Virus genome (UHGV): UHGV-1662908
Origin: a virus
Reading direction: 5' to 3' (one strand)
Length of the DNA: 18,670 bases
Position 1 is the first letter of the stretch. Each line of letters starts with the position of its first letter. Of the stretch, positions 7,378 to 14,295 are shown piece by piece. A program made the translations under genes and the position numbers. Under the pieces are notes generated by a model. The model did no database searches, had not been told where the DNA came from, and saw nothing but the letters and a program-made list of their open reading frames with translations.

Positions 7378-7559
7378 TTCTCACCTTCGCTTTTCTTGAA
7401 GCTGCGCTTTATGTCCGGCAGCGTGTAACATCGTGACTTTTCGTATTTACCGTTCGAGCTTACCAAAACAAAGCTGTTGCCGTCTTTTGATATGTACTCG
7501 ATGGTGAAAGTATTGAATGTGCGTATGCTGTATATTTCATCACCAACATTAAGTTTCAT
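7374..7559 (-). CDS. hypothetical protein (61 aa)
   Basis: ORF track 7374..7559; start overlaps the helicase stop; last in the minus-strand operon. Confidence 0.45.
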   Translation of the reverse strand: MKLNVGDEIYSIRTFNTFTIEYISKDGNSFVLVSSNGKYEKSRCYTLPDIKRSFKKSEGEK

Positions 7560-8980
7560 TTCTTACCTCGTCTCTTCATGTAATTAAGCAACTCTTCCTG
7601 TACCGATTTTTTCTCGTCCGTACGCGCGGCAACAACCTCGTCCAGCGTGTCTTTAGCGACGATGTGGTAGAGGAACACCGGGCGCTCGTGTCCTGCCTGT
7701 TTCTGACGGACTGGACCTATACGCTCAACGACCTGCAAATAGTGCTCAAGGTTCCATCCCTGACTTATGAACGCCAGATGATGCCCGCCGTCCTGTAAAT
7801 TTAAACCATGACCGGCTGACGCAGGGTGGACGCATAGTATTTCGATTTCACCACGGTTCCACGCTTCCATCTGCTTATTACCCTTAGCGCCTTTTGCAAA
7901 CGCCTGTGCCTGCGGGAAACGTTTCAGGATGCGTTCCAGTTCGTGCTTGAACTGATAAGCCACAAGCAGCGGCGCGCCCTGTAACTCCTCGACAATTGAC
8001 TCAAGCGCGTCAAGTTTCGTATCGTGCACTTTCTCCCAGTCTTTGGTTGCTTCGCCGTCTGGCCCTGACACATATACGGCACCGGAGGCAATCTGCAAAC
8101 ACTTCGACGTCTTCGCCGCAGCGTTAGCGGCTTCAACCTCCCCGCTCTCCAGTTCCGCGAATAACTTCTCCTCCATATCGATGTACGCCTGACGTGCTTT
8201 CTTCGGCAGGTCGATTTCCACTGGCACGATAACAGGCGCTTCACACCCGAACCACTCGGCAGCGTCAATCGTGAGACTGATGTCCTTCATCTTCTGGTGA
8301 ATTTCGTTATCCGCCCCCGGGCGCGCATGATACTCTCGCGCCATAGCGGACTTACCCTTCTGGACCGAATTAAACCAGCGGTCGGTGAACGCGGTGTATG
8401 AAGAACCCAGTCGCTCGCCAGCGTCAATAAACCAGTTCTGCCCCCACAAGTCCTTCAGGCCGTTTGGTGATGGCGTACCTGTCAGGTTGATAAAACGCTT
8501 AACCTTACCGAATGCCACTTTGCTAAGCGCCTTTGCCCGCTTGCTTCCGCCGGAACGGCTGCGGAATGATTTAAGTTTCGTGCTTTCATCGGCAACGATA
8601 ACCGTAAAAGGCCAGTCGTCTTTGCCGTAGTAGTCAATCAGCCATTCGATAACTTCATAGTTCGTGCACACCACGTTAGCGTATGACTCCAGCGCCGCGA
8701 TGCGGCGCTTCTCCGAACCCGTGGCATCGACGACACTCAGGCATGGGAATCGCCATTTCTCTTGTTCTGCTGGCCATGTGCCGGACGCAACGCGCAGCGG
8801 AGCTAGTATTAACACGCGGTCGTCATCGTTAAGTTGGCCGTTGCGGAACAGTCGGTTTAATGCCCACAGTACGCTGCCAGTCTTCCCGGCACCCATGCTT
8901 GCCCATATGTTGCAGCGATTGTGCCGCAACATAAACGAAGTCATGAGCTTTTGGTACTCGCGCCTTTGAAACTTAGACAT
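7556..8980 (-). CDS. SNF2/DEAD-like superfamily 2 helicase (~474 aa)
   Basis: Track ORF 7556..9298, but its first ~106 codons overlap the upstream gene and look non-protein-like; likely start is the internal ATG (MSKFQRREYQ) at 8980. Motifs: Walker A GAGKTGS, DExx box VIVADEST, SNF2-type motif III LTGTPSPN. Confidence 0.8.
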   Translation of the reverse strand: MSKFQRREYQKLMTSFMLRHNRCNIWASMGAGKTGSVLWALNRLFRNGQLNDDDRVLILAPLRVASGTWPAEQEKWRFPCLSVVDATGSEKRRIAALESYANVVCTNYEVIEWLIDYYGKDDWPFTVIVADESTKLKSFRSRSGGSKRAKALSKVAFGKVKRFINLTGTPSPNGLKDLWGQNWFIDAGERLGSSYTAFTDRWFNSVQKGKSAMAREYHARPGADNEIHQKMKDISLTIDAAEWFGCEAPVIVPVEIDLPKKARQAYIDMEEKLFAELESGEVEAANAAAKTSKCLQIASGAVYVSGPDGEATKDWEKVHDTKLDALESIVEELQGAPLLVAYQFKHELERILKRFPQAQAFAKGAKGNKQMEAWNRGEIEILCVHPASAGHGLNLQDGGHHLAFISQGWNLEHYLQVVERIGPVRQKQAGHERPVFLYHIVAKDTLDEVVAARTDEKKSVQEELLNYMKRRGKK

Positions 8981-9656
8981 GATTAGCCTCGTAAACTGCT
9001 TTTGCGAGCCCACGCGGAGTAAGGCTGCGGATTGTTTTTGTTCTGGCGCTCTTTCCGCCGAGTTTAGCCCAACCAGGGTTATCTCCGCTGCCCACGGCAA
9101 CCTCGGCAACGTTAGGCATAACAAACCCATTTCCGGCCCACAGGCACGTCTTTTTAACATATGCATCTCGCGCCGGGATAACATCCGGGAACATTGGATG
9201 CGTGTCGTCTTCGGGTAAATAGCCGCCGTATTCGTACGGATTGAACGCGTAGTCAGGCTTACGCCATAAAGACGAAAGAACGCTAACCGGGTTCTCAATC
9301 ATATACGGTACGTTGTACTTTTTAGCCAGACGCGCAGCCACTTTGCATGTAATCACGGCCTCTACCTGAAACGTTGGGTTCCTTCTCCGCTTCGTTTCGA
9401 AATGGGCCGCGCCGCTAACGGCTAAATCTGTGCATGGGGGGAACGCGAAAATAATATCCGGCGCAACGTCGAAGTCGAATTTATTATCAATCCACGCGTT
9501 TATATAGTGGATATTTTCATGTTCAACTTTTGCACCCAATCGAGCGTAGTCTCCGTGGTCGGCGCCGTCGTAGTTGAAACAATAGCAAGTATGGCCCGCT
9601 TCCGCCCACGGTTGGGCCATAATGCCCGAACCGTCAAACAATGACCAGACAATCAT
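8973..9656 (-). CDS. SAM-dependent DNA (cytosine-5)-methyltransferase-like protein (227 aa, short)
   Basis: ORF track 8973..9656. Motif I-like SLFDGSG (FxGxG), motif IV-like FPPC with candidate catalytic Cys, motif VI-like IENP. Shorter than typical C5-MTases, so the target-recognition region may be minimal or the function different. Confidence 0.5.
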   Translation of the reverse strand: MIVWSLFDGSGIMAQPWAEAGHTCYCFNYDGADHGDYARLGAKVEHENIHYINAWIDNKFDFDVAPDIIFAFPPCTDLAVSGAAHFETKRRRNPTFQVEAVITCKVAARLAKKYNVPYMIENPVSVLSSLWRKPDYAFNPYEYGGYLPEDDTHPMFPDVIPARDAYVKKTCLWAGNGFVMPNVAEVAVGSGDNPGWAKLGGKSARTKTIRSLTPRGLAKAVYEANHV

Positions 9657-10394: not shown

Positions 10395-10522
10395 TCCAGC
10401 ACCCACAGATAAATTGCGATGAACATACCCAATACGGTGACAATCATGCCGTATTGACCCTCGTGACAGTAGACACCGGCGGCGAATCCCGCCAGTAATA
10501 CGATAATCAGTTTACTTAGCAT
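10391..10522 (-). CDS. small hydrophobic membrane peptide (~43 aa)
   Basis: Not in track. My translation MLSKLIIVLLAGFAAGVYCHEGQYGMIVTVLGMFIAIYLWVLE; its ATG overlaps the last codons of the DNA polymerase gene and its stop overlaps the next ATG. Confidence 0.4.
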   Translation of the reverse strand: MLSKLIIVLLAGFAAGVYCHEGQYGMIVTVLGMFIAIYLWVLE

Positions 10523-13500
10523 AACGTTTCATCTCCGCACCTTCCGCTACAAGCGGGAACCCCTCAGCCCACTCAGGCAGCGAACACATTAATTTTTCCA
10601 GTTCAGCCACCGTGTAATCAGGCGTATCTGGAGTTTCACACACCAGTTCATCGTGTACCGAAAGCACGATGGGATACCCGCCACCCTCAACATTAATCAT
10701 CGCATATGCTAGTAAATCACGGCACAACGCCTGAACAATGTTTTCACAGGCTTTGCCGCCGTGGGTGTACAGGGTAGTCCATTGGCGGGTTAACTGGTTT
10801 TCACCTTGGTACTTGATTCGCACATTCGTGTTTACCCGTCCGTCTTCGTCTGTTTCTTTTGTCACGCTAACGCCGATCCCCGGATACGAGAGGATACGGC
10901 CTGACGGCAACTCCATACACAACCACCAACCGGGAACCTTCCTACCTGATGAATCGGTTTCTACTGTTCTCCAGATTCGGATAGCGCGCTCGCCATTCTT
11001 GCGCAAGTGTGCTCCCGCCCAAAATTCACGACCAGGATTGCGCACAGCGGCTAAAATTCCGTCTTTAAGGTCCCGCCAGAACGCTACTGTTTCCGGGTGT
11101 GACTCGCGCCACATACGCTTGATCGCGTCACATGTGCGCCACACTTTCTTGTCCAGAATATACGATGGTCTGTCGTCCTTTTCACCTGGATGCGGTGGCC
11201 GCTTTGCTTCCTGGATGCGTGCCCACTCGTACCCGCGTGCGGTAGCGGCCCATATGTGGCCCGGGAATGTACCGTCCATTGTTTTTGCCATCTCAATAAG
11301 GTCAAGACCTAAGTTTTTAGCGAACGTAACGAACGCTCCGACGCCTCCCTCGTAGCCGAGGCCAAGCTCGCAGTTATGCGCCACAAGAAAGCCAGAGTCT
11401 GAGGCTATAAGAAAACGGTTGCCGTCTTCCACATCAATCAGGTCGTACACCGGCTCGCAGTAGGTTAATTTCCCGCTCAAGTTCAGCAATGCGGGCAACG
11501 GCTGCATCATACTTTCGTTGAAGCTCGGGTATTTGCCGTCTGTTTCGGCAGTTTTCAGAACGGCTGACAAACCGAATGTTTCCAGGTTCGTAGTTACCGT
11601 CTGTGTCGATTCTATCCATTTCGAGGTTCGGGTCATCCCAGCTTTCCAGAGTTTGAACATATCTAAGAAAAGACCTTTTATCAGTCCTCCACTGGTCGAA
11701 TACCGTGATGCCTCTTGCCCCATAGTTTTTATAACCCTTATCCCTGGGGCTTGTTGTTCGCGTGATAGCCGCGGACAGCCGGTTGAGTAATCGCGTTCTG
11801 TGCGCATCATCCGGCATTGCGTCTTCGTAGCAGAAATACTGTTTACGATATTTTTTTGTTGCTTCAAGGGCGCAGCGGTTGCATTGAGTGGTTTTACCCG
11901 CTCTGACGTTGTCATAATAGACCCGCCCCGGCATCCCCCCGCAATCACATTGGACGAGTAGTTGTCTTTGGCCTTGTCGTTTTGGTAACTCGCGCAGGAT
12001 AACCAAGCGTCCATACCTCTCTCCAGGGCGAGGCCCATCATATATCTGTTTGAAGCGAGTTGCTTTGCCTGCTTCCAGGAATGCGCCAAGATTTTGTGGT
12101 CTTCGGTCATTAGCACCCCGTCCACATTTATTACCGGTTTCCACCCCATAAGGTGCGCGCCTTTTGTATTCACCCATTTTTCACCGCTCCATACTTTATC
12201 TGTTGATGTAACCGCCATAATATCCTTAAATCCGCCATCGGTCAAAACTTGGGTATGACGGTGAAGGCACGCTTTACCAATCTGGCGCAAGTCTTTACGT
12301 TCTTTCTTAATGTCGTCTGGGTCCATGCCAAACATCTTACCTGCGGTTACGCAATAAATATCCAGCCCGGCGCGGAACGTATCTAGCGCGGTTTCTTCGC
12401 CTGCAAGCCACGCAAGCCCTCGGCCCTCAACGTTAGAATAATCGGCAACAACAAACTTATGTCCTGCTTCCGGTATGATGCAGCTACGCACCGTCGATGC
12501 CGTTAATTTAGCGACATCAAAACGGCGGTGCGCGCGGCCCTTAAGTAACGCTGAAATGCCTTTATCCAGTTCATCATCGTGATAGTACCCGCGCGCGAGG
12601 TTCTGCGGTTGGAAGCCTTTACCCGCCCATCGCAGAGTGCGTTTTGCCCCGCCGTACTGCAAGCAACCGCGGCGTCGGTCGTCAGAAGAGCGGCCCAACA
12701 GCAGTGGGTTATATTTCGTTGATGCGGTGGACGCGGCCCCGAGGCGCATTTCTATAATCATGCGAGCATCGTCGGGTAAATCATCGTCTGCCAGCAGGTC
12801 ATTCAGTGTCGACTTCTGTGCGTTATGGATGCGGTGCGCGGGTGCGAGTTCACGCAGAATCGGAAGGAAGTCTTTACCAGTAAGCGAGCCGCCGTATTTT
12901 CGTTGGGCTTCTTCCTGTAACTGTGCCTTGTGCTTCTCCACGGCTTCAATCGCGGCTTCCGCCAGTGCGACGTCAACCTTAAACCCGCGGTCATTGATTA
13001 ACTGGTCCAGCTCCAGTACACGGTCCTCGAACTCGGAGTTACCCCAACGCGGCAGTTTATGGAAGACTTCACGCATCGCGGTGATGTCGCTCACGGCGTA
13101 CTTGATGAACAGCGCCCACTCGTCAGGGTGTGTTTCTGCGGTGTATCGACGGATTTTGTAGTTCTTCGGCGTCGGTTTAGAGAAACGCTGAATCAGCGCC
13201 TTGCCGCGTTTGTCTTTTGCATTGTCCGCCGATACGCCCAGCACTTCGCACAGCGCATCAAGTGACCCAGGCAGCGCGTGACGAAACGCTCGAATCATAG
13301 TGTCGATGGTATTTCTCGGTTTGATATCCACACCCCAGCAGTGCTTCATAACTAGCCTGTCGAACATTAAAAAGTTATGGCCTACAATTCTCATACGCCC
13401 GCGCATAACATTACGTAGCGCAACGCGTAGGCTTATTGGCATTACTGGTTCGGAAGTGCAATCCCATACTTCTACAGGCCCATCATCAACGGCGTATGTA

Positions 13501-13607
13501 CATATTATAATCTCAGTTGTTGCGTGTTCCGCGTATGCGTATGACCCTACTTTCTTTAGGTCAGCTTCAGAGAATGTTTCGGTATCAAGATACAATAAAT
13601 TAGCCAT
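10512..13607 (-). CDS. family A DNA polymerase with N-terminal 3'-5' exonuclease domain, interrupted by an intein (precursor 1031 aa)
   Basis: ORF track 10512..13607. Exo motifs YLDTETFS, GHNFLMFD, YAVSDI; polymerase motif A VVADYSNVEGRG; motif B split as RQIGKA / CELGLGYEGG; motif C VLSVHDELV. Confidence 0.9.
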   Translation of the reverse strand: MANLLYLDTETFSEADLKKVGSYAYAEHATTEIIICTYAVDDGPVEVWDCTSEPVMPISLRVALRNVMRGRMRIVGHNFLMFDRLVMKHCWGVDIKPRNTIDTMIRAFRHALPGSLDALCEVLGVSADNAKDKRGKALIQRFSKPTPKNYKIRRYTAETHPDEWALFIKYAVSDITAMREVFHKLPRWGNSEFEDRVLELDQLINDRGFKVDVALAEAAIEAVEKHKAQLQEEAQRKYGGSLTGKDFLPILRELAPAHRIHNAQKSTLNDLLADDDLPDDARMIIEMRLGAASTASTKYNPLLLGRSSDDRRRGCLQYGGAKRTLRWAGKGFQPQNLARGYYHDDELDKGISALLKGRAHRRFDVAKLTASTVRSCIIPEAGHKFVVADYSNVEGRGLAWLAGEETALDTFRAGLDIYCVTAGKMFGMDPDDIKKERKDLRQIGKACLHRHTQVLTDGGFKDIMAVTSTDKVWSGEKWVNTKGAHLMGWKPVINVDGVLMTEDHKILAHSWKQAKQLASNRYMMGLALERGMDAWLSCASYQNDKAKDNYSSNVIAGGCRGGSIMTTSERVKPLNATAAPLKQQKNIVNSISATKTQCRMMRTERDYSTGCPRLSREQQAPGIRVIKTMGQEASRYSTSGGLIKGLFLDMFKLWKAGMTRTSKWIESTQTVTTNLETFGLSAVLKTAETDGKYPSFNESMMQPLPALLNLSGKLTYCEPVYDLIDVEDGNRFLIASDSGFLVAHNCELGLGYEGGVGAFVTFAKNLGLDLIEMAKTMDGTFPGHIWAATARGYEWARIQEAKRPPHPGEKDDRPSYILDKKVWRTCDAIKRMWRESHPETVAFWRDLKDGILAAVRNPGREFWAGAHLRKNGERAIRIWRTVETDSSGRKVPGWWLCMELPSGRILSYPGIGVSVTKETDEDGRVNTNVRIKYQGENQLTRQWTTLYTHGGKACENIVQALCRDLLAYAMINVEGGGYPIVLSVHDELVCETPDTPDYTVAELEKLMCSLPEWAEGFPLVAEGAEMKRYAK
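11373..12269 (-). mobile_element. intein (299 codons) inserted in motif B of the DNA polymerase
   Basis: Boundaries computed from track coordinates: Cys447 (CLHRHTQVLTDGGF, block A) to Asn745 (VYDLIDVEDGNRFLIASDSGFLVAHN, blocks F/G), followed by +1 Cys; block B TEDHKILA at aa ~501-508. Confidence 0.75.
11434..12177 (-). CDS. HNH homing-endonuclease-like ORF lying inside the intein but in a different reading frame from the polymerase/intein frame
   Basis: ORF track 11434..12177 (247 aa); frame differs from the polymerase ORF ((13607-12177) mod 3 = 2). Contains GRLVIL...CDCGG...QCNRC and GYKNYGARGITVFDQW...MDRIDTDGNYEPGNIRFVSRSENCRNR, typical of phage HNH endonucleases. Recognisable part starts ~aa 50; the first ~50 codons overlap intein blocks A/B. 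Confidence 0.6.
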   Translation of the reverse strand: MGEYKRRAPYGVETGNKCGRGANDRRPQNLGAFLEAGKATRFKQIYDGPRPGERYGRLVILRELPKRQGQRQLLVQCDCGGMPGRVYYDNVRAGKTTQCNRCALEATKKYRKQYFCYEDAMPDDAHRTRLLNRLSAAITRTTSPRDKGYKNYGARGITVFDQWRTDKRSFLRYVQTLESWDDPNLEMDRIDTDGNYEPGNIRFVSRSENCRNRRQIPELQRKYDAAVARIAELEREINLLRAGVRPD

Positions 13608-13623
13608 ATTATTTTCGACCCTT

Positions 13624-13650
13624 AGTAAAAAGGCCCAATGAAGGGCCTTA
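13624..13650 (-). terminator. intergenic stem-loop / partial terminator between ssDNA-binding-like gene and DNA polymerase gene
   Basis: Inverted repeat AAGGCCC ... GGGCCTT with a 6-nt loop, followed on the minus strand by a run of T; sits in the 61-nt gap between the two genes. Coordinates approximate. Confidence 0.5.
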
Positions 13651-13668
13651 GTTAAATTGATTCAGATA

Positions 13669-14295
13669 TTAACGGCGACGACGTTCACGGCGCGGTGCTC
13701 CATCTTCTTCGTCGTCTTCCAGGTCATTAACGCTTGCAGCAACTTTAGAACCGCCGAACGCTTTACCTTCGCCGACGTATTTAATTGCCAGCAGGTTAAC
13801 GCCGAGGACTTTATATTTCTGGCTAAACCAGATTTCAACGCTTACGTTGGCGACACAGCCGCTGTAAACCTGTTCACCTTCAATCTGTTCGCCGTCTACA
13901 TTGAAGTCCTGCTCTACCTGAGTCTCACCTTTTTTAGAGGTTACAATCAGCGGCTGTTTCTGTGCCTTCGCTTTGAAGTAGAATCCTTCCGGGAAGTCTT
14001 CATACGGATTGTCGCGCTCGGCAATGTCTTTAATCGCGCATTTATCCATGTGCTTGCCTTCGCCGTAGTTCGACTTCATCCATTTCTCGGCGGCGGCTGC
14101 ACCTAACGCTTCTTCAACTACAGCGTAAACAGTGTCGTAGAGCGCATCGATTTGAGCATGGTCAGATGGCAGGATAATAGTCGCGCTGTACTGGCCTTTA
14201 GTGATTGAGCCATCATCGTTTTCACGGTCTTTTTCGCGTTCGAATACGTTAACCCATGCAGTGTTTACTTTACGTAGATTTAATTTCAGTCCCAT
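13669..14295 (-). CDS. DUF2815-like phage ssDNA-binding protein with acidic C-terminal tail
   Basis: ORF track 13669..14295. N-terminal pattern (KVNTAWVNVFE...KGQYSATIILPSDHAQID) resembles the DUF2815 family that accompanies DUF2800 nucleases and PolA in phages; acidic tail DLEDDEEDG; first gene after promoter B. Confidence 0.55.
   Translation of the reverse strand: MGLKLNLRKVNTAWVNVFEREKDRENDDGSITKGQYSATIILPSDHAQIDALYDTVYAVVEEALGAAAAEKWMKSNYGEGKHMDKCAIKDIAERDNPYEDFPEGFYFKAKAQKQPLIVTSKKGETQVEQDFNVDGEQIEGEQVYSGCVANVSVEIWFSQKYKVLGVNLLAIKYVGEGKAFGGSKVAASVNDLEDDEEDGAPRRERRRR

What the first reader, a model, noticed from the sequence alone, without database searches (positions are those of the whole stretch)
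11373..12269. Intein whose HNH endonuclease is encoded out of frame with its splicing domain, while both frames stay open
Inside the polymerase ORF, aa 447-745 carry intein blocks A, B and F/G in the polymerase frame. Between blocks B and F that frame translates to a featureless S/T/K/R/Q/M-rich stretch with no endonuclease motifs. A different frame of the same strand (ORF 11434..12177) encodes a well-formed HNH endonuclease, and its stop lies within a few codons of where block F begins in the polymerase frame. The total length (299 codons) fits a canonical HNH intein, so this looks like a canonical intein with two compensating frame changes. Yet the polymerase frame has no stop across roughly 200 out-of-frame codons, which by chance is roughly (61/64)^200, on the order of 1e-4. 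That suggests read-through is under selection (needed to make the C-terminal half of the polymerase) while the endonuclease frame also remains intact. Possible explanations: (i) an overprinted, dual-coding intein whose endonuclease is translated independently (a GGAG lies ~9 nt upstream of the ATG at 12177); (ii) a recently frame-disrupted intein endonuclease; (iii) two compensating sequencing indels. I saw no slippery heptamer that would suggest programmed frameshifting.
Basis: partly seen in the sequence, partly recalled or inferred. Interest (0 to 1): 0.9.

Follow-up and report, generated by a model that had tools for sequence, protein, structure and literature searches.

The report
Polymerase intein with overprinted homing-endonuclease gene
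A self-splicing protein insert (intein) in a phage DNA polymerase carries a putative HNH-like homing-endonuclease gene in a second reading frame of the same DNA, and selection keeps both frames open across a large, old family of phage polymerases.

Summary
Window 11373..12269(-) is an 897-nt intein in a family A DNA polymerase of a Jersey/Kaguna-like coliphage. The polymerase frame has no stop, the -1 frame holds a 247-codon HNH-like ORF (11434..12177), and the third frame has 28 stops.

It is neither a sequencing artefact nor a recent disruption. 163 GenBank phages carry the full-length intein (nearly all listed matches are 897 nt), and all 80 IMG/VR relatives fetched (HNH identity 41-99%) show the same nesting in the same frame relation.

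Selection switches frame along the element. The Hint ends have omega about 0.05 in the polymerase frame. In the middle the HNH frame has omega about 0.10, while the polymerase frame has omega about 1.1-1.4 and is only kept stop-free.

The HNH start (ATG or GTG in 64 of 65 loci) sits at intein nt 93, on the invariant Trp codon of the Hint motif W-D-G-x-x-W. A sigma-70-like promoter lies in block A codons and shows codon-choice bias across the family.

Outside this clade, the nuclease's homologs are free-standing phage genes. The intein is far more similar between phages than the flanking polymerase, and intein-less alleles are common, which points to mobility.

Inteins with out-of-frame endonucleases were described in 2025-26 preprints for other nuclease families. 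I found no report of this family. Whether the protein is a true HNH enzyme is unresolved, because it has Arg where the catalytic His is expected.

The parts
10512..13607 (-). Family A DNA polymerase precursor ORF (1031 aa): N-extein 12270..13607, intein 11373..12269, C-extein 10512..11372
   Evidence: ORF list. Pfam DNA_pol_A and 3'-5' exonuclease hits flank the intein. Intein-less homologs of 732 aa are 96-98% identical over the N-extein.
11373..12269 (-). Intein, 897 nt / 299 codons, inserted in polymerase motif B between RQIGKA and CELGLGY
   Evidence: Identical to the annotated intein mat_peptide of vB_SenS-Ent2. Intein-less alleles read RQIGKA|CELGLGY without interruption. Cys1, TxxH, terminal His-Asn and +1 Cys/Ser are present in 65 of 65 family loci.
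12036..12269 (-). N-terminal Hint part (polymerase-frame codons 1-78: block A CLHRHTQVLT, motif W-S-G-E-K-W, block B TEDH)
   Evidence: Polymerase-frame omega is about 0.05 for codons 1-30 and 0.2-0.9 in the overlap zone, codons 31-79. A Hint profile hits the solved Neq Pol split-intein fragment at E = 1.1e-4 and the Spl DnaX mini-intein at E = 3.1e-3.
11535..12032 (-). Polymerase-frame linker (codons 80-245): translated but not constrained at the amino-acid level, only kept free of stops
   Evidence: Polymerase-frame omega is 0.7-1.4 while HNH-frame omega is about 0.10. Variable sites concentrate at polymerase codon position 2, which is HNH position 3. AF2 pLDDT is about 20 here, though the whole model is poor. 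No stop in 65 of 65 loci.
11373..11498 (-). C-terminal Hint part (blocks F and G: VYDLIDVEDGNRFLIASDSGFLVAHN)
   Evidence: Polymerase-frame omega is about 0.05 for codons 279-299. The NRF...HN|C pattern is conserved in all loci.
11434..12177 (-). Nested HNH-like endonuclease gene, 247 codons, in the -1 frame of the polymerase
   Evidence: phrog_374 'HNH endonuclease' E = 9.5e-47. 286 homologs in the protein collection and 261 loci in IMG/VR. HNH-frame omega about 0.10. AF2 mean pLDDT 80.8.
11533..12027 (-). Conserved core of the nuclease (residues 51-215), the part shared with free-standing phage homologs
   Evidence: tblastn hits to free-standing phage genes cover residues about 52-215. Alignment with three such genes. 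pLDDT is 84-96 over most of this range.
11872..11949 (-). Cys4 zinc-ribbon-like motif, CDC...CNRC (C77, C79, C99, C102)
   Evidence: The four Cys are invariant in 37 family members. Weak profile similarity to zinc-binding COX5B.
11542..11622 (-). Putative beta-beta-alpha-Me motif EMDRIDTDGNYEPGNIRFVSRSENCRN (D188, R189, N200, N209, N212 invariant)
12175..12177 (-). Start codon of the nested gene, formed by the last base of Lys31 (AAA) plus TG of the Trp32 codon of the Hint motif
   Evidence: A start codon sits at intein nt 93 or 96 in 64 of 65 loci (ATG 54, GTG 10). The codon before Trp ends in a purine in 49 of 49 non-redundant loci, including 11 of 11 where it belongs to a family of four or more codons.
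12187..12190 (-). Shine-Dalgarno-like GGAG, 9 nt upstream of the ATG
   Evidence: Sequence. Across the family the W-D-G codons (UGGGAYGG) give anti-SD pairing of -6.4 to -10.7 kcal/mol, with no codon-choice signal beyond what the amino acids impose.
12217..12245 (-). Candidate internal sigma-70-type promoter: TTGACC (12240..12245), 17-nt spacer, TATTAT (12217..12222), written in block A codons (V-L-T ... D-I-M)
   Evidence: Consensus scan, 10 of 12 matches. The same position scores at least 8 of 12 in about 38 of 65 loci. Synonymous resampling gives observed 8.27 versus 6.77, with 23 of 49 loci at P < 0.05. Leu codon 9 is TTG in 27 of 42 loci against a 13% background. For the window alone P = 0.17.
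11434..11436 (-). TGA stop of the nested gene, inside the block F codons (VYDLID)
   Evidence: In relatives the stop lies 1-70 nt before the intein end, often as the TAA within CAT-AAC of block G.

Best explanation
This is a dual-coded mobile element: a mini-intein and an endonuclease gene interleaved on the same DNA.

- **Polymerase frame.** Ribosomes translating the polymerase read straight through 299 intein codons. Only the first ~78 and last ~42 codons encode the Hint splicing domain. The ~166 codons between are the +1 frame of another gene and form a sequence-unconstrained linker that only has to stay free of stop codons. The Hint domain then splices the linker out and rejoins polymerase motif B. 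This splicing step is inferred, not shown.
- **Nuclease frame.** In the -1 frame the same DNA encodes a 247-aa HNH-like protein. It has a ~50-residue N-terminal extension predicted to be largely disordered, then a small beta-barrel, a Cys4 zinc ribbon, a helical region, a putative beta-beta-alpha-Me motif and a long C-terminal helix.
- **Expression.** The protein is made on its own from a start codon at intein nt 93. That codon is locked in place by the invariant Trp codon of the Hint motif W-x-G-x-x-W, and the purine-rich W-[DS]-G codons serve as the ribosome-binding site. It may be transcribed from a sigma-70-like promoter written into block A codons; this is inferred from consensus and codon bias only.
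- **Function.** The protein most likely cuts or nicks intein-less polymerase alleles in co-infecting phages, so that repair copies the whole element in (homing). This is inferred from the sporadic distribution and from the much higher similarity of the intein than of the exteins.
- **Origin.** The arrangement probably arose when a free-standing phage endonuclease gene lodged in the loop of a mini-intein. It has been stable since, always in the same frame relation.
For: - **Frames.** 0, 5 and 28 stops in the three frames. Both frames are open in 10 GenBank relatives.
- **Family-wide nesting.** In 80 of 80 IMG/VR relatives the nuclease gene lies inside a 600-1280-codon open frame at +1. The three long-contig homologs examined are also nested.
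- **Selection.** Codon-position profile. Nei-Gojobori omega: polymerase frame about 0.05 at both Hint ends; HNH frame about 0.10 and polymerase frame 0.7-1.4 in the middle; both intermediate in the overlap zones.
- **Stop avoidance.** Given the HNH protein, P(no polymerase-frame stop) is 0.010 for the core and 0.0016 for the full ORF.
- **Hint.** Cys1, TxxH, HN and +1 Cys/Ser in 65 of 65 loci. Profile hits to solved inteins: NEQ068 at 1.1e-4 and Spl DnaX mini-intein at 3.1e-3.
- **Start codon.** ATG or GTG at the same nucleotide in 64 of 65 loci. The preceding codon ends in a purine in 49 of 49, and in 11 of 11 cases from families of four or more codons.
- **Promoter.**
- **Free-standing relatives.** They cover only residues 52-215.
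- **Mobility.** 163 intein-plus versus 476 contiguous intein-less records. Against SO-1 the intein is 82.8% identical and the exteins 64-65%. Against Jerseyviruses the figures are 92-95% and 75%. The 100-nt flanks are 91-96% identical in most intein-plus Jersey comparisons. The window's nearest extein relatives (96-98% aa) lack the intein.
Against: - No expression, splicing or cleavage data exist; everything is sequence inference.
- No Pfam HNH or Hint model matches.
- The AF2 model of the polymerase-frame intein failed, with pLDDT 30.7, so the Hint fold was not shown structurally.
- For this window alone the promoter match is largely forced by the amino acids (P = 0.17). The SD-like sequence is also forced by W-[DS]-G.
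- Part of the intein's higher nucleotide identity could come from dual-coding constraint rather than transfer.
- The reason for the conserved 50-codon N-terminal extension is unknown.
Confidence: 0.82

Rival explanations
1. The nested gene is real and selected, but its product is not a homing nuclease. It could be a DNA-binding or regulatory protein, or a helper for another nuclease, that merely hitch-hikes in the intein loop. Mobility, if any, would then depend on other endonucleases of the phage.
Against: The protein matches several PHROG families annotated as HNH or endonuclease VII and resembles the beta-beta-alpha-Me enzymes PacI and Hpy99I. N200, N209 and a Cys4 zinc site are invariant. 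The element is sporadic among close relatives, with flank similarity that looks like co-conversion. That pattern is what a site-specific nuclease produces.
Confidence: 0.12
2. Programmed ribosomal frameshifting joins the frames. Ribosomes shift -1 after block B and +1 before block F, producing a canonical Hint-HNH-Hint intein. The independent ORF would then be incidental.
For: The HNH frame is open from just before block B to block F. The total length of 299 codons fits a canonical endonuclease-containing intein.
Against: There is no X_XXY_YYZ site between 12177 and about 12030 in the polymerase frame (by inspection). The only heptamer is mid-gene and clade-specific. If the shifted product were the functional one, the polymerase-frame linker would not need to stay stop-free, yet it does in 65 of 65 loci. 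A start codon is conserved at nt 93 with codon-choice bias. Free-standing homologs show that the nuclease works as a separate protein.
Confidence: 0.04
3. The element is a recently frame-disrupted, decaying endonuclease domain of a canonical intein. Both frames are open only because too little time has passed.
For: Inteins are known to lose their endonucleases. One old record (SS3e) shows a broken polymerase frame.
Against: HNH-frame omega is about 0.10 at dS up to about 0.96. The ORF is intact and always in the same frame relation at 41-50% protein identity in 80 of 80 loci. No in-frame relative was found. The SS3e record is 899 nt against 897 nt for nearly all other listed matches.
Confidence: 0.01
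4. Two compensating sequencing or assembly indels create an apparent frame change in an ordinary HNH intein.
For: None beyond the a priori possibility. An A7 run exists at 11851..11857.
Against: 163 independently sequenced phage genomes carry the full-length intein and nearly all listed matches are 897 nt. So do dozens of metagenomic contigs from unrelated samples. The selection pattern follows the two frames exactly.
Confidence: 0.005

Closest known systems
Actinobacteriophage inteins with a homing endonuclease in a separate reading frame (Gosselin, Arsenault & Gogarten, bioRxiv 10.1101/2025.01.02.630785)
   Same: Hint blocks lie in the host frame. The region between them gives no recognisable fold in that frame. 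A nuclease ORF lies in another frame of the same DNA. The nuclease is related to free-standing phage endonuclease genes, and there are signs of ongoing horizontal transfer. The authors propose that a free-standing endonuclease gene invaded an intein.
   Different: - Their same-strand case is an endonuclease VII-like nuclease (IPR004211) in actinophages; their other cases are antisense LAGLIDADG or VSR-like. Here the nuclease is a different, HNH-annotated family in enterobacterial and metagenomic phage PolA genes.
[quoted passage not shown] Here the ORF starts inside the N-terminal Hint codons and ends in block F or G.
- They do not discuss start codons, ribosome-binding sites or promoters.
- They treat the state as possibly transitional. 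Here it is conserved down to about 41% protein identity.
Cyanobacterial DnaX intein with an out-of-frame homing endonuclease (bioRxiv 10.64898/2026.09.14.751524; earlier antisense LAGLIDADG reports cited)
   Same: An intein whose endonuclease is not in the splicing-domain frame, with sporadic distribution (title and abstract start only). The Hint profile built here also hits the solved Spl DnaX mini-intein.
   Different: The host gene (dnaX) and host organisms differ. I could not read the paper, so nuclease type and frame relation could not be compared.
ShiLan-type hidden out-of-frame HNH insertions in phage DNA methylases (Arsenault et al. 2025, PMC11855218)
   Same: An insertion that stays stop-free in the host frame while an HNH-like gene is read in another frame. 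The start codon lies a short way into the insert. The stop is a TAA within the last four bases (TAAC); many relatives of the present family end the same way, in CAT-AAC.
   Different: ShiLan has no detectable Hint domain and is thought to remain as a loop in the mature protein. Here the Hint catalytic residues are complete and the insert sits in polymerase motif B.
Fractured genes: split inteins with a free-standing endonuclease gene between the halves (Dassa et al. 2009, PMC2677866)
   Same: A free-standing-type endonuclease gene occupies the endonuclease insertion point of an intein, which fits a 'splicing first, nuclease later' history.
   Different: In fractured genes the host gene is broken into two ORFs and splicing is in trans. 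Here the host frame is continuous in 65 of 65 loci.
Canonical bifunctional inteins with an in-frame HNH or LAGLIDADG domain (for example the LAGLIDADG helicase intein annotated in the same phage group)
   Same: Same overall length class, same position of the nuclease-coding DNA between blocks B and F, and same presumed homing cycle.
   Different: The nuclease is not part of the intein polypeptide. The intein protein is functionally a mini-intein with a long unconstrained loop.

Membership tests
Intein (class 1, Hint domain) | N-terminal Cys/Ser nucleophile and block B TxxH | tested here: met
   Cys1 in 65 of 65 loci. TxxH (TEDH in the window, TPDH most common) in 65 of 65.
Intein (class 1, Hint domain) | C-terminal His-Asn followed by Cys/Ser/Thr at +1 | tested here: met
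   HN in 65 of 65 loci. The +1 residue is Cys in 64 and Ser in 1.
Intein (class 1, Hint domain) | In-frame insertion in a conserved site of a host protein, with uninterrupted intein-less alleles | tested here: met
   Inserted in PolA motif B. 476 phage records carry the contiguous allele RQIGKA|CELGLGY.
Intein (class 1, Hint domain) | Sequence or profile similarity to known Hint domains | tested here: met
   A profile of the Hint parts hits the NEQ068 split-intein fragment at E = 1.1e-4 and the Spl DnaX mini-intein at E = 3.1e-3 over nearly its full length. Caveats: Pfam and NCBIfam intein models do not match, and the AF2 model failed.
Intein (class 1, Hint domain) | Protein splicing activity | not testable with these tools
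   Inferred only, because the insertion interrupts the O-helix motif of an essential polymerase.
Canonical bifunctional intein | Endonuclease domain in the same reading frame as the splicing blocks | tested here: not met
   The polymerase-frame middle matches no nuclease family; its only family match, phrog_93 'endonuclease', appears to rest on translations of this same linker (inferred). It evolves at omega about 1. The nuclease is in the -1 frame.
HNH / beta-beta-alpha-Me endonuclease | Match to curated HNH profiles | tested here: inconclusive
   PHROG families annotated as HNH match: phrog_374 at 9.5e-47, phrog_3377 at 4e-22, phrog_2081 at 8e-21. No Pfam HNH model matches the window protein, the 36 relatives, or three free-standing homologs.
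HNH / beta-beta-alpha-Me endonuclease | Catalytic His on the first beta strand (the first H of H-N-H) | tested here: not met
   The aligned position is an invariant Arg (D188-R189 in E-M-D-R-I-D), also in the free-standing homologs.
HNH / beta-beta-alpha-Me endonuclease | Conserved Asn residues and a structural zinc site | tested here: met
   N200, N209 and N212 are invariant. C77, C79, C99 and C102 are invariant.
HNH / beta-beta-alpha-Me endonuclease | Beta-beta-alpha-Me fold | tested here: inconclusive
Inteins with an endonuclease in a separate reading frame (2025-26 preprints) | Hint blocks in the host frame, with an intact nuclease ORF in another frame between or over them | tested here: met
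Inteins with an endonuclease in a separate reading frame (2025-26 preprints) | Distribution indicating horizontal movement | tested here: met
   The intein is 83-99% identical where exteins are 64-90%. The closest extein relatives lack the intein. 163 records carry it and 476 do not.
Fractured gene / split intein with intervening endonuclease gene | Host gene split into two separately translated ORFs | tested here: not met
   The host frame is continuous across the intein in 65 of 65 loci.
Group I intron (as annotated in the Sodalis phage SO-1 record) | Group I intron RNA structure | tested here: not met
   No Rfam match at E <= 1 over 10400..13700. The host frame is open and carries the intein catalytic residues.
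Programmed -1 ribosomal frameshift site | Slippery X_XXY_YYZ heptamer at the frame junction | tested here: not met
   None between 12177 and about 12030. The only heptamer (11851..11857) is mid-gene and absent from the Dhillonvirus clade.

The most novel reading that the evidence does not exclude
This is not a transitional accident. It is a large, old and stable lineage of fully overprinted mobile elements, in which the endonuclease gene's whole expression cassette (sigma-70-type promoter in block A codons, ribosome-binding site in W-D-G codons, start codon on an invariant Trp codon, stop in block F/G codons) is written into the splicing-domain coding sequence. Intein and nuclease gene then cannot be separated by recombination or decay independently. 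That would be a new solution to how an intein and its endonuclease stay linked, in genetically tractable E. coli and Salmonella phages.
Probability: 0.4. Interest if true: 0.75.

Novelty: new variant of a known kind. Interest (0 to 1): 0.62.

Why it matters
How inteins acquired their homing endonucleases, and how the two parts stay together, is a long-standing question. The 'splicing first, nuclease invades later' model has mostly rested on split-intein relics and a few recent actinophage cases.

Here the intermediate architecture, a free-standing-type nuclease gene lodged in a mini-intein in another frame, turns out to be a large, conserved family. 261 relatives of the nested gene turned up in IMG/VR. 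More than 1000 representative protein clusters match the polymerase-frame intein, though only their protein sequences were compared. The family includes over 160 cultured Salmonella and E. coli phages. Homing, splicing, internal initiation and the candidate promoter can therefore all be tested directly by phage genetics.

It is also a clean natural example of long-range overprinting, with a measurable 'keep it open, nothing else' constraint on one frame.

On the practical side, it explains recurrent mis-annotation of these polymerases: split CDSs, 'endonuclease', 'group I intron', and a PHROG family apparently built on the non-selected frame. It also warns intein surveys that 'mini-inteins' of about 290 aa may hide a nuclease gene.

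Tried and rejected
- **Pfam and NCBIfam on both frames.** No Hint or HNH hits. The membership tests had to rely on PHROGs, custom profiles and motifs.
- **Structure search with the nuclease model.** Foldseek against the PDB gave nothing significant. The profile search against PDB sequences found only zinc-ribbon-like similarity to COX5B.
- **AF2 of the polymerase-frame intein.** The only alignment allowed (20 close homologs) gave a useless model, pLDDT 30.7. I draw no structural conclusion about the Hint fold from it.
- **Word-indexed search with the polymerase-frame intein.** It returned only 4 close hits. The exhaustive representative search was the informative one.
- **Group I intron reading from the SO-1 record.** Rejected, no Rfam hit.
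- **Frameshifting.** No junction heptamer. The mid-gene A_AAA_AAT is clade-specific.
- **SD codon-choice test.** No signal beyond what the W-D-G amino acids impose, so the ribosome-binding site is plausible but not independently supported.
- **Other Jerseyvirus inteins.** The helicase intein of Ent2 is annotated as a canonical LAGLIDADG intein, so the arrangement is not a general property of inteins in these phages.
- **Related Hint domains with a different middle.** I looked for in-frame nucleases in P0247, P0251, P0264, P0135 and P0183. Pfam sees none and I had no DNA for them.
- **The 2026 dnaX preprint.** It could not be opened.


Full report
**1. What is in the window**

The window comes from a Jersey/Kaguna-like siphophage of Salmonella/E. 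coli. The region around the finding is 97% identical to Escherichia phage vB-Eco-KMB36 and to several Salmonella Jerseyviruses. The minus strand carries a 1031-codon family A DNA polymerase ORF, 10512..13607.

Codons 447-745 (11373..12269) begin CLHRHTQVLT, contain TEDH, and end VAHN followed by Cys. These limits coincide exactly with the 'intein' mat_peptide annotated in Salmonella phage vB_SenS-Ent2, where it is described as 'encoding splicing domains' only.

The -1 frame holds a 247-codon ORF, 11434..12177. GGAG lies 9 nt before its ATG. Across the 897 nt the polymerase frame has 0 stops. The -1 frame has 5, all outside the ORF. The third frame has 28.

**2. Not an artefact and not recent**

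A blastn search finds the full-length intein in 163 GenBank phage records, at 83-99% identity. Nearly all listed matches are exactly 897 nt. The one listed exception is the 2005-era SS3e record, which is 899 nt and has its polymerase split into three CDSs.

In ten relatives fetched, both frames are open and the third frame has 24-29 stops. These include Dhillonviruses at 83% identity (SO-1, EP23, Pubbukkers). Sequencing error is excluded.

**3. Which frame is under selection**

Among 11 sequences there are 217 variable sites. In polymerase codons 1-50 and 276-299 they fall mainly on polymerase codon position 3. In codons 76-250 they fall on polymerase position 2, which is position 3 of the -1 frame.

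| Polymerase codons | Polymerase-frame omega | HNH-frame omega |
|---|---|---|
| 1-30 (N-terminal Hint only) | about 0.05 | not constrained |
| 31-79 (overlap zone) | 0.2-0.9 | 0.2-0.6 |
| 80-245 (linker / HNH core) | 0.7-1.4 | about 0.10, at dS up to 0.96 |
| 246-278 (overlap zone) | 0.3-0.5 | 0.2-0.4 |
| 279-299 (C-terminal Hint only) | about 0.05 | not constrained |

The nuclease gene is a functional protein-coding gene. The polymerase-frame translation of the middle is free to change as long as it contains no stop.

I held the HNH protein fixed and resampled synonymous codons with the phage's own usage. The polymerase frame is then stop-free in 1.0% of trials for the 167-codon core (mean 3.5 stops) and 0.16% for the full ORF. 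It becomes overwhelming once conservation is considered.

**4. A large family with the same architecture**

- The -1 frame protein has 286 homologs of about 230-260 aa at 42-73% identity.
- Three homologs that lie on long contigs are each nested out of frame in a PolA intein, with both frames open.
- A scan of IMG/VR with the family alignment found 261 loci. In all 80 fetched (41-99% identity) the nuclease gene lies wholly inside a 600-1280-codon open frame, always at +1 relative to the nuclease.
- In 65 distinct loci the host protein is a PolA with an intein of 277-299 codons. All have no polymerase-frame stop, Cys1, TxxH, terminal His-Asn, and +1 Cys (64) or Ser (1).
- An exhaustive search with the polymerase-frame intein found 1065 representative clusters at E < 1e-3. 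Most align over the full 299 residues inside proteins of about 900-1050 aa. The eight I scanned were seven PolA proteins and one SNF2 helicase.

No relative with the nuclease in frame was found. The arrangement is therefore old and stable, not a passing state.

**5. Expression signals**

A start codon sits at intein nt 93 (nt 96 in three loci) in 64 of 65 loci: ATG in 54 and GTG in 10. It is formed by the last base of the preceding codon plus TG of the invariant Trp codon in the Hint motif W-D-G-x-x-W. The preceding codon ends in a purine in 49 of 49 non-redundant loci. That includes 11 of 11 cases where it belongs to a family of four or more codons (TCA, GCA, ACG).

The W-[DS]-G codons give an SD-like purine tract, with pairing of -6.4 to -10.7 kcal/mol. 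There is no codon-choice signal beyond what the amino acids impose.

A consensus scan finds TTGACC-17-TATTAT at 12245..12217, written in block A codons about 40 nt upstream of the ATG. The same position scores at least 8 of 12 in about 38 of 65 loci. Under synonymous resampling the observed mean is 8.27 against 6.77, and 23 of 49 non-redundant loci reach P < 0.05. Leu codon 9 is TTG in 27 of 42 loci against a 13% background. For the window alone P = 0.17, because the amino acids nearly force the match. I regard an internal promoter as a reasonable but unproven inference.

The stop of the nested gene lies 1-70 nt before the intein end. In many relatives it is the TAA inside CAT-AAC, the His-Asn codons of block G.

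**6. What the two proteins are**

*Hint.* Pfam and NCBIfam do not recognise it. A profile of the Hint parts from 29 diverse members hits the solved Nanoarchaeum PolB split-intein fragment NEQ068 (E = 1.1e-4). It also hits the Spl DnaX mini-intein over nearly its whole length (E = 3.1e-3), with RecA and DnaB inteins just below threshold.

*Nuclease.*
- It matches PHROG families annotated as HNH endonuclease (E from 1e-46 to 1e-19) and, weakly, endonuclease VII.
- AF2 gives a confident model, pLDDT 80.8. Residues 1-25 have pLDDT below 50 and residues 26-50 score 51-66 (one helix at 30-40). The core is well packed, and there is a long helix at 206-241.
- Four Cys and N200, N209, N212 are invariant. 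The position of the canonical catalytic His is an invariant Arg (E-M-D-R-I-D), and this holds in the free-standing homologs too.

Outside this clade the homologs are free-standing phage genes of about 170-270 aa. They align only to residues 52-215. I therefore call the protein HNH-like and leave strict HNH membership open.

**7. Mobility**

- 476 phage records carry the uninterrupted allele RQIGKA|CELGLGY, with the +1 Cys native to the polymerase.
- Against SO-1 the intein is 82.8% identical while the exteins are 64-65%.
- Against Jerseyviruses the intein is 92-95% identical while the N-extein is about 75%. In most of these comparisons the 100 nt on either side of the intein are 91-96% identical, which looks like co-conversion.
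- The window's nearest extein relatives (96-98% aa) are intein-less 732-aa Kagunavirus polymerases. Its intein is 99% identical to those of Salmonella phages.

This pattern fits recent horizontal acquisition by homing. Dual-coding constraint may contribute to the higher intein identity.

**8. Comparison with the literature**

- A 2025 preprint on actinobacteriophage inteins reports inteins whose endonuclease is in another frame or on the other strand: an endonuclease VII-like nuclease in 'frame 3', plus antisense LAGLIDADG and VSR-like nucleases. It proposes invasion of inteins by free-standing endonuclease genes. It says nothing about start codons, promoters or ribosomes.
- A 2026 preprint title reports an out-of-frame endonuclease in the cyanobacterial DnaX intein. 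I could not read it.
- A 2025 paper describes hidden out-of-frame HNH insertions in phage methylases that lack any Hint domain.
- None of the papers I could open mentions Salmonella phages or this PolA intein. Further searches of the held library found no description of it.
- GenBank records show that the ORF had been seen but not interpreted. SO-1 annotates a nested gp39 and calls the element a 'type I self-splicing intron'. SS3e annotates an HNH endonuclease between two polymerase fragments. Rfam finds no intron.

**9. Verdict**

- **Known:** the general category, an intein with a nuclease in another reading frame.
- **Apparently new:** this nuclease family in this setting; the size and age of the lineage; the strict conservation of the frame relation; the anchoring of the start and stop in Hint catalytic-motif codons; and the candidate promoter in block A codons.
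- **Unproven:** splicing, independent translation, nuclease activity and promoter function.
- **Unexplained:** the conserved 50-codon N-terminal extension, which is predicted to be largely disordered.

Noticed in passing
L015, L017 and most of L030-L097 versus window 11343..11372 / 12270..12299: Family members use two insertion registers in polymerase motif B, four codons apart: GKA|CELGLGY (window, L016, L033 and others) and GKVxELA|CG[FY]xGG (most metagenomic loci). Each has a Cys at +1. This suggests the element has shifted its homing site at least once.
   Followed up: partly
L037, L046, L051, L055-L057, L066-L071 and others (intein 3' ends); compare window 11373..11378: In many relatives the nested gene ends with the TAA inside CAT-AAC (His-Asn of block G), so the intein's last four bases are TAAC. 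The published ShiLan hidden-HNH insertion in phage methylases has the same ending, although it has no detectable Hint domain.
   Followed up: no
L002 (Salmonella phage SS3e NC_006940) 1501-2399; L001 (Sodalis phage SO-1); L004; L009: Public annotation of this gene is inconsistent. SS3e has 899 instead of 897 nt and a polymerase split into three CDSs. SO-1 calls the element a group I intron. The VT223 polymerase is named 'endonuclease' and the ABTNLP14 polymerase 'ssDNA-binding protein'. PHROG phrog_93 ('endonuclease') matches the polymerase-frame linker at E = 3e-196, so it appears to rest on translations of the frame that is not under amino-acid selection.
   Followed up: partly
window 11851..11857 (-): An A7 run forms A_AAA_AAT in the polymerase frame, in the middle of the nested gene (K-K in the HNH frame). 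It is present in the Jersey-type inteins but absent from the Dhillonvirus and L028 versions, so it is probably incidental. It is a likely hotspot for sequencing or replication slippage.
   Followed up: partly
proteins P0003-P0120: Most metagenomic contigs carrying homologs of the nested gene are only 0.9-1.3 kb, about one intein long. On two of the three long contigs examined (L015, L016) the gene sits at a contig end. Assemblies seem to break at intein boundaries, as expected if intein-plus and intein-less alleles coexist in the sampled populations.
   Followed up: no
P0249: A related N-terminal Hint region (48% identity over 76 residues) occurs in an SNF2-family helicase. Several PolA proteins share the Hint ends but have an unalignable middle with no Pfam nuclease in frame. 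These may carry other nested or decayed nuclease genes.
   Followed up: partly
L102 (vB_SenS-Ent2 helicase gene, HG934469 25365..27830): In related Jerseyviruses the helicase carries a second intein, annotated as a canonical LAGLIDADG type. The window's helicase-sized ORF (7556..9298, 580 aa) is short enough to lack it. The vKMB36 paper reports a 900-bp intein in a minor head protein gene but does not mention the polymerase intein.
   Followed up: partly
window 8973..9656 (-) and 7556..9298 (-): A 227-aa ORF whose N-terminus looks to me like a DNA methyltransferase (FDGSG motif, by eye, no profile search) overlaps the mechanically listed 580-aa ORF by about 326 nt on the same strand. The true start of the downstream gene is probably further in. 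Not examined.
   Followed up: no
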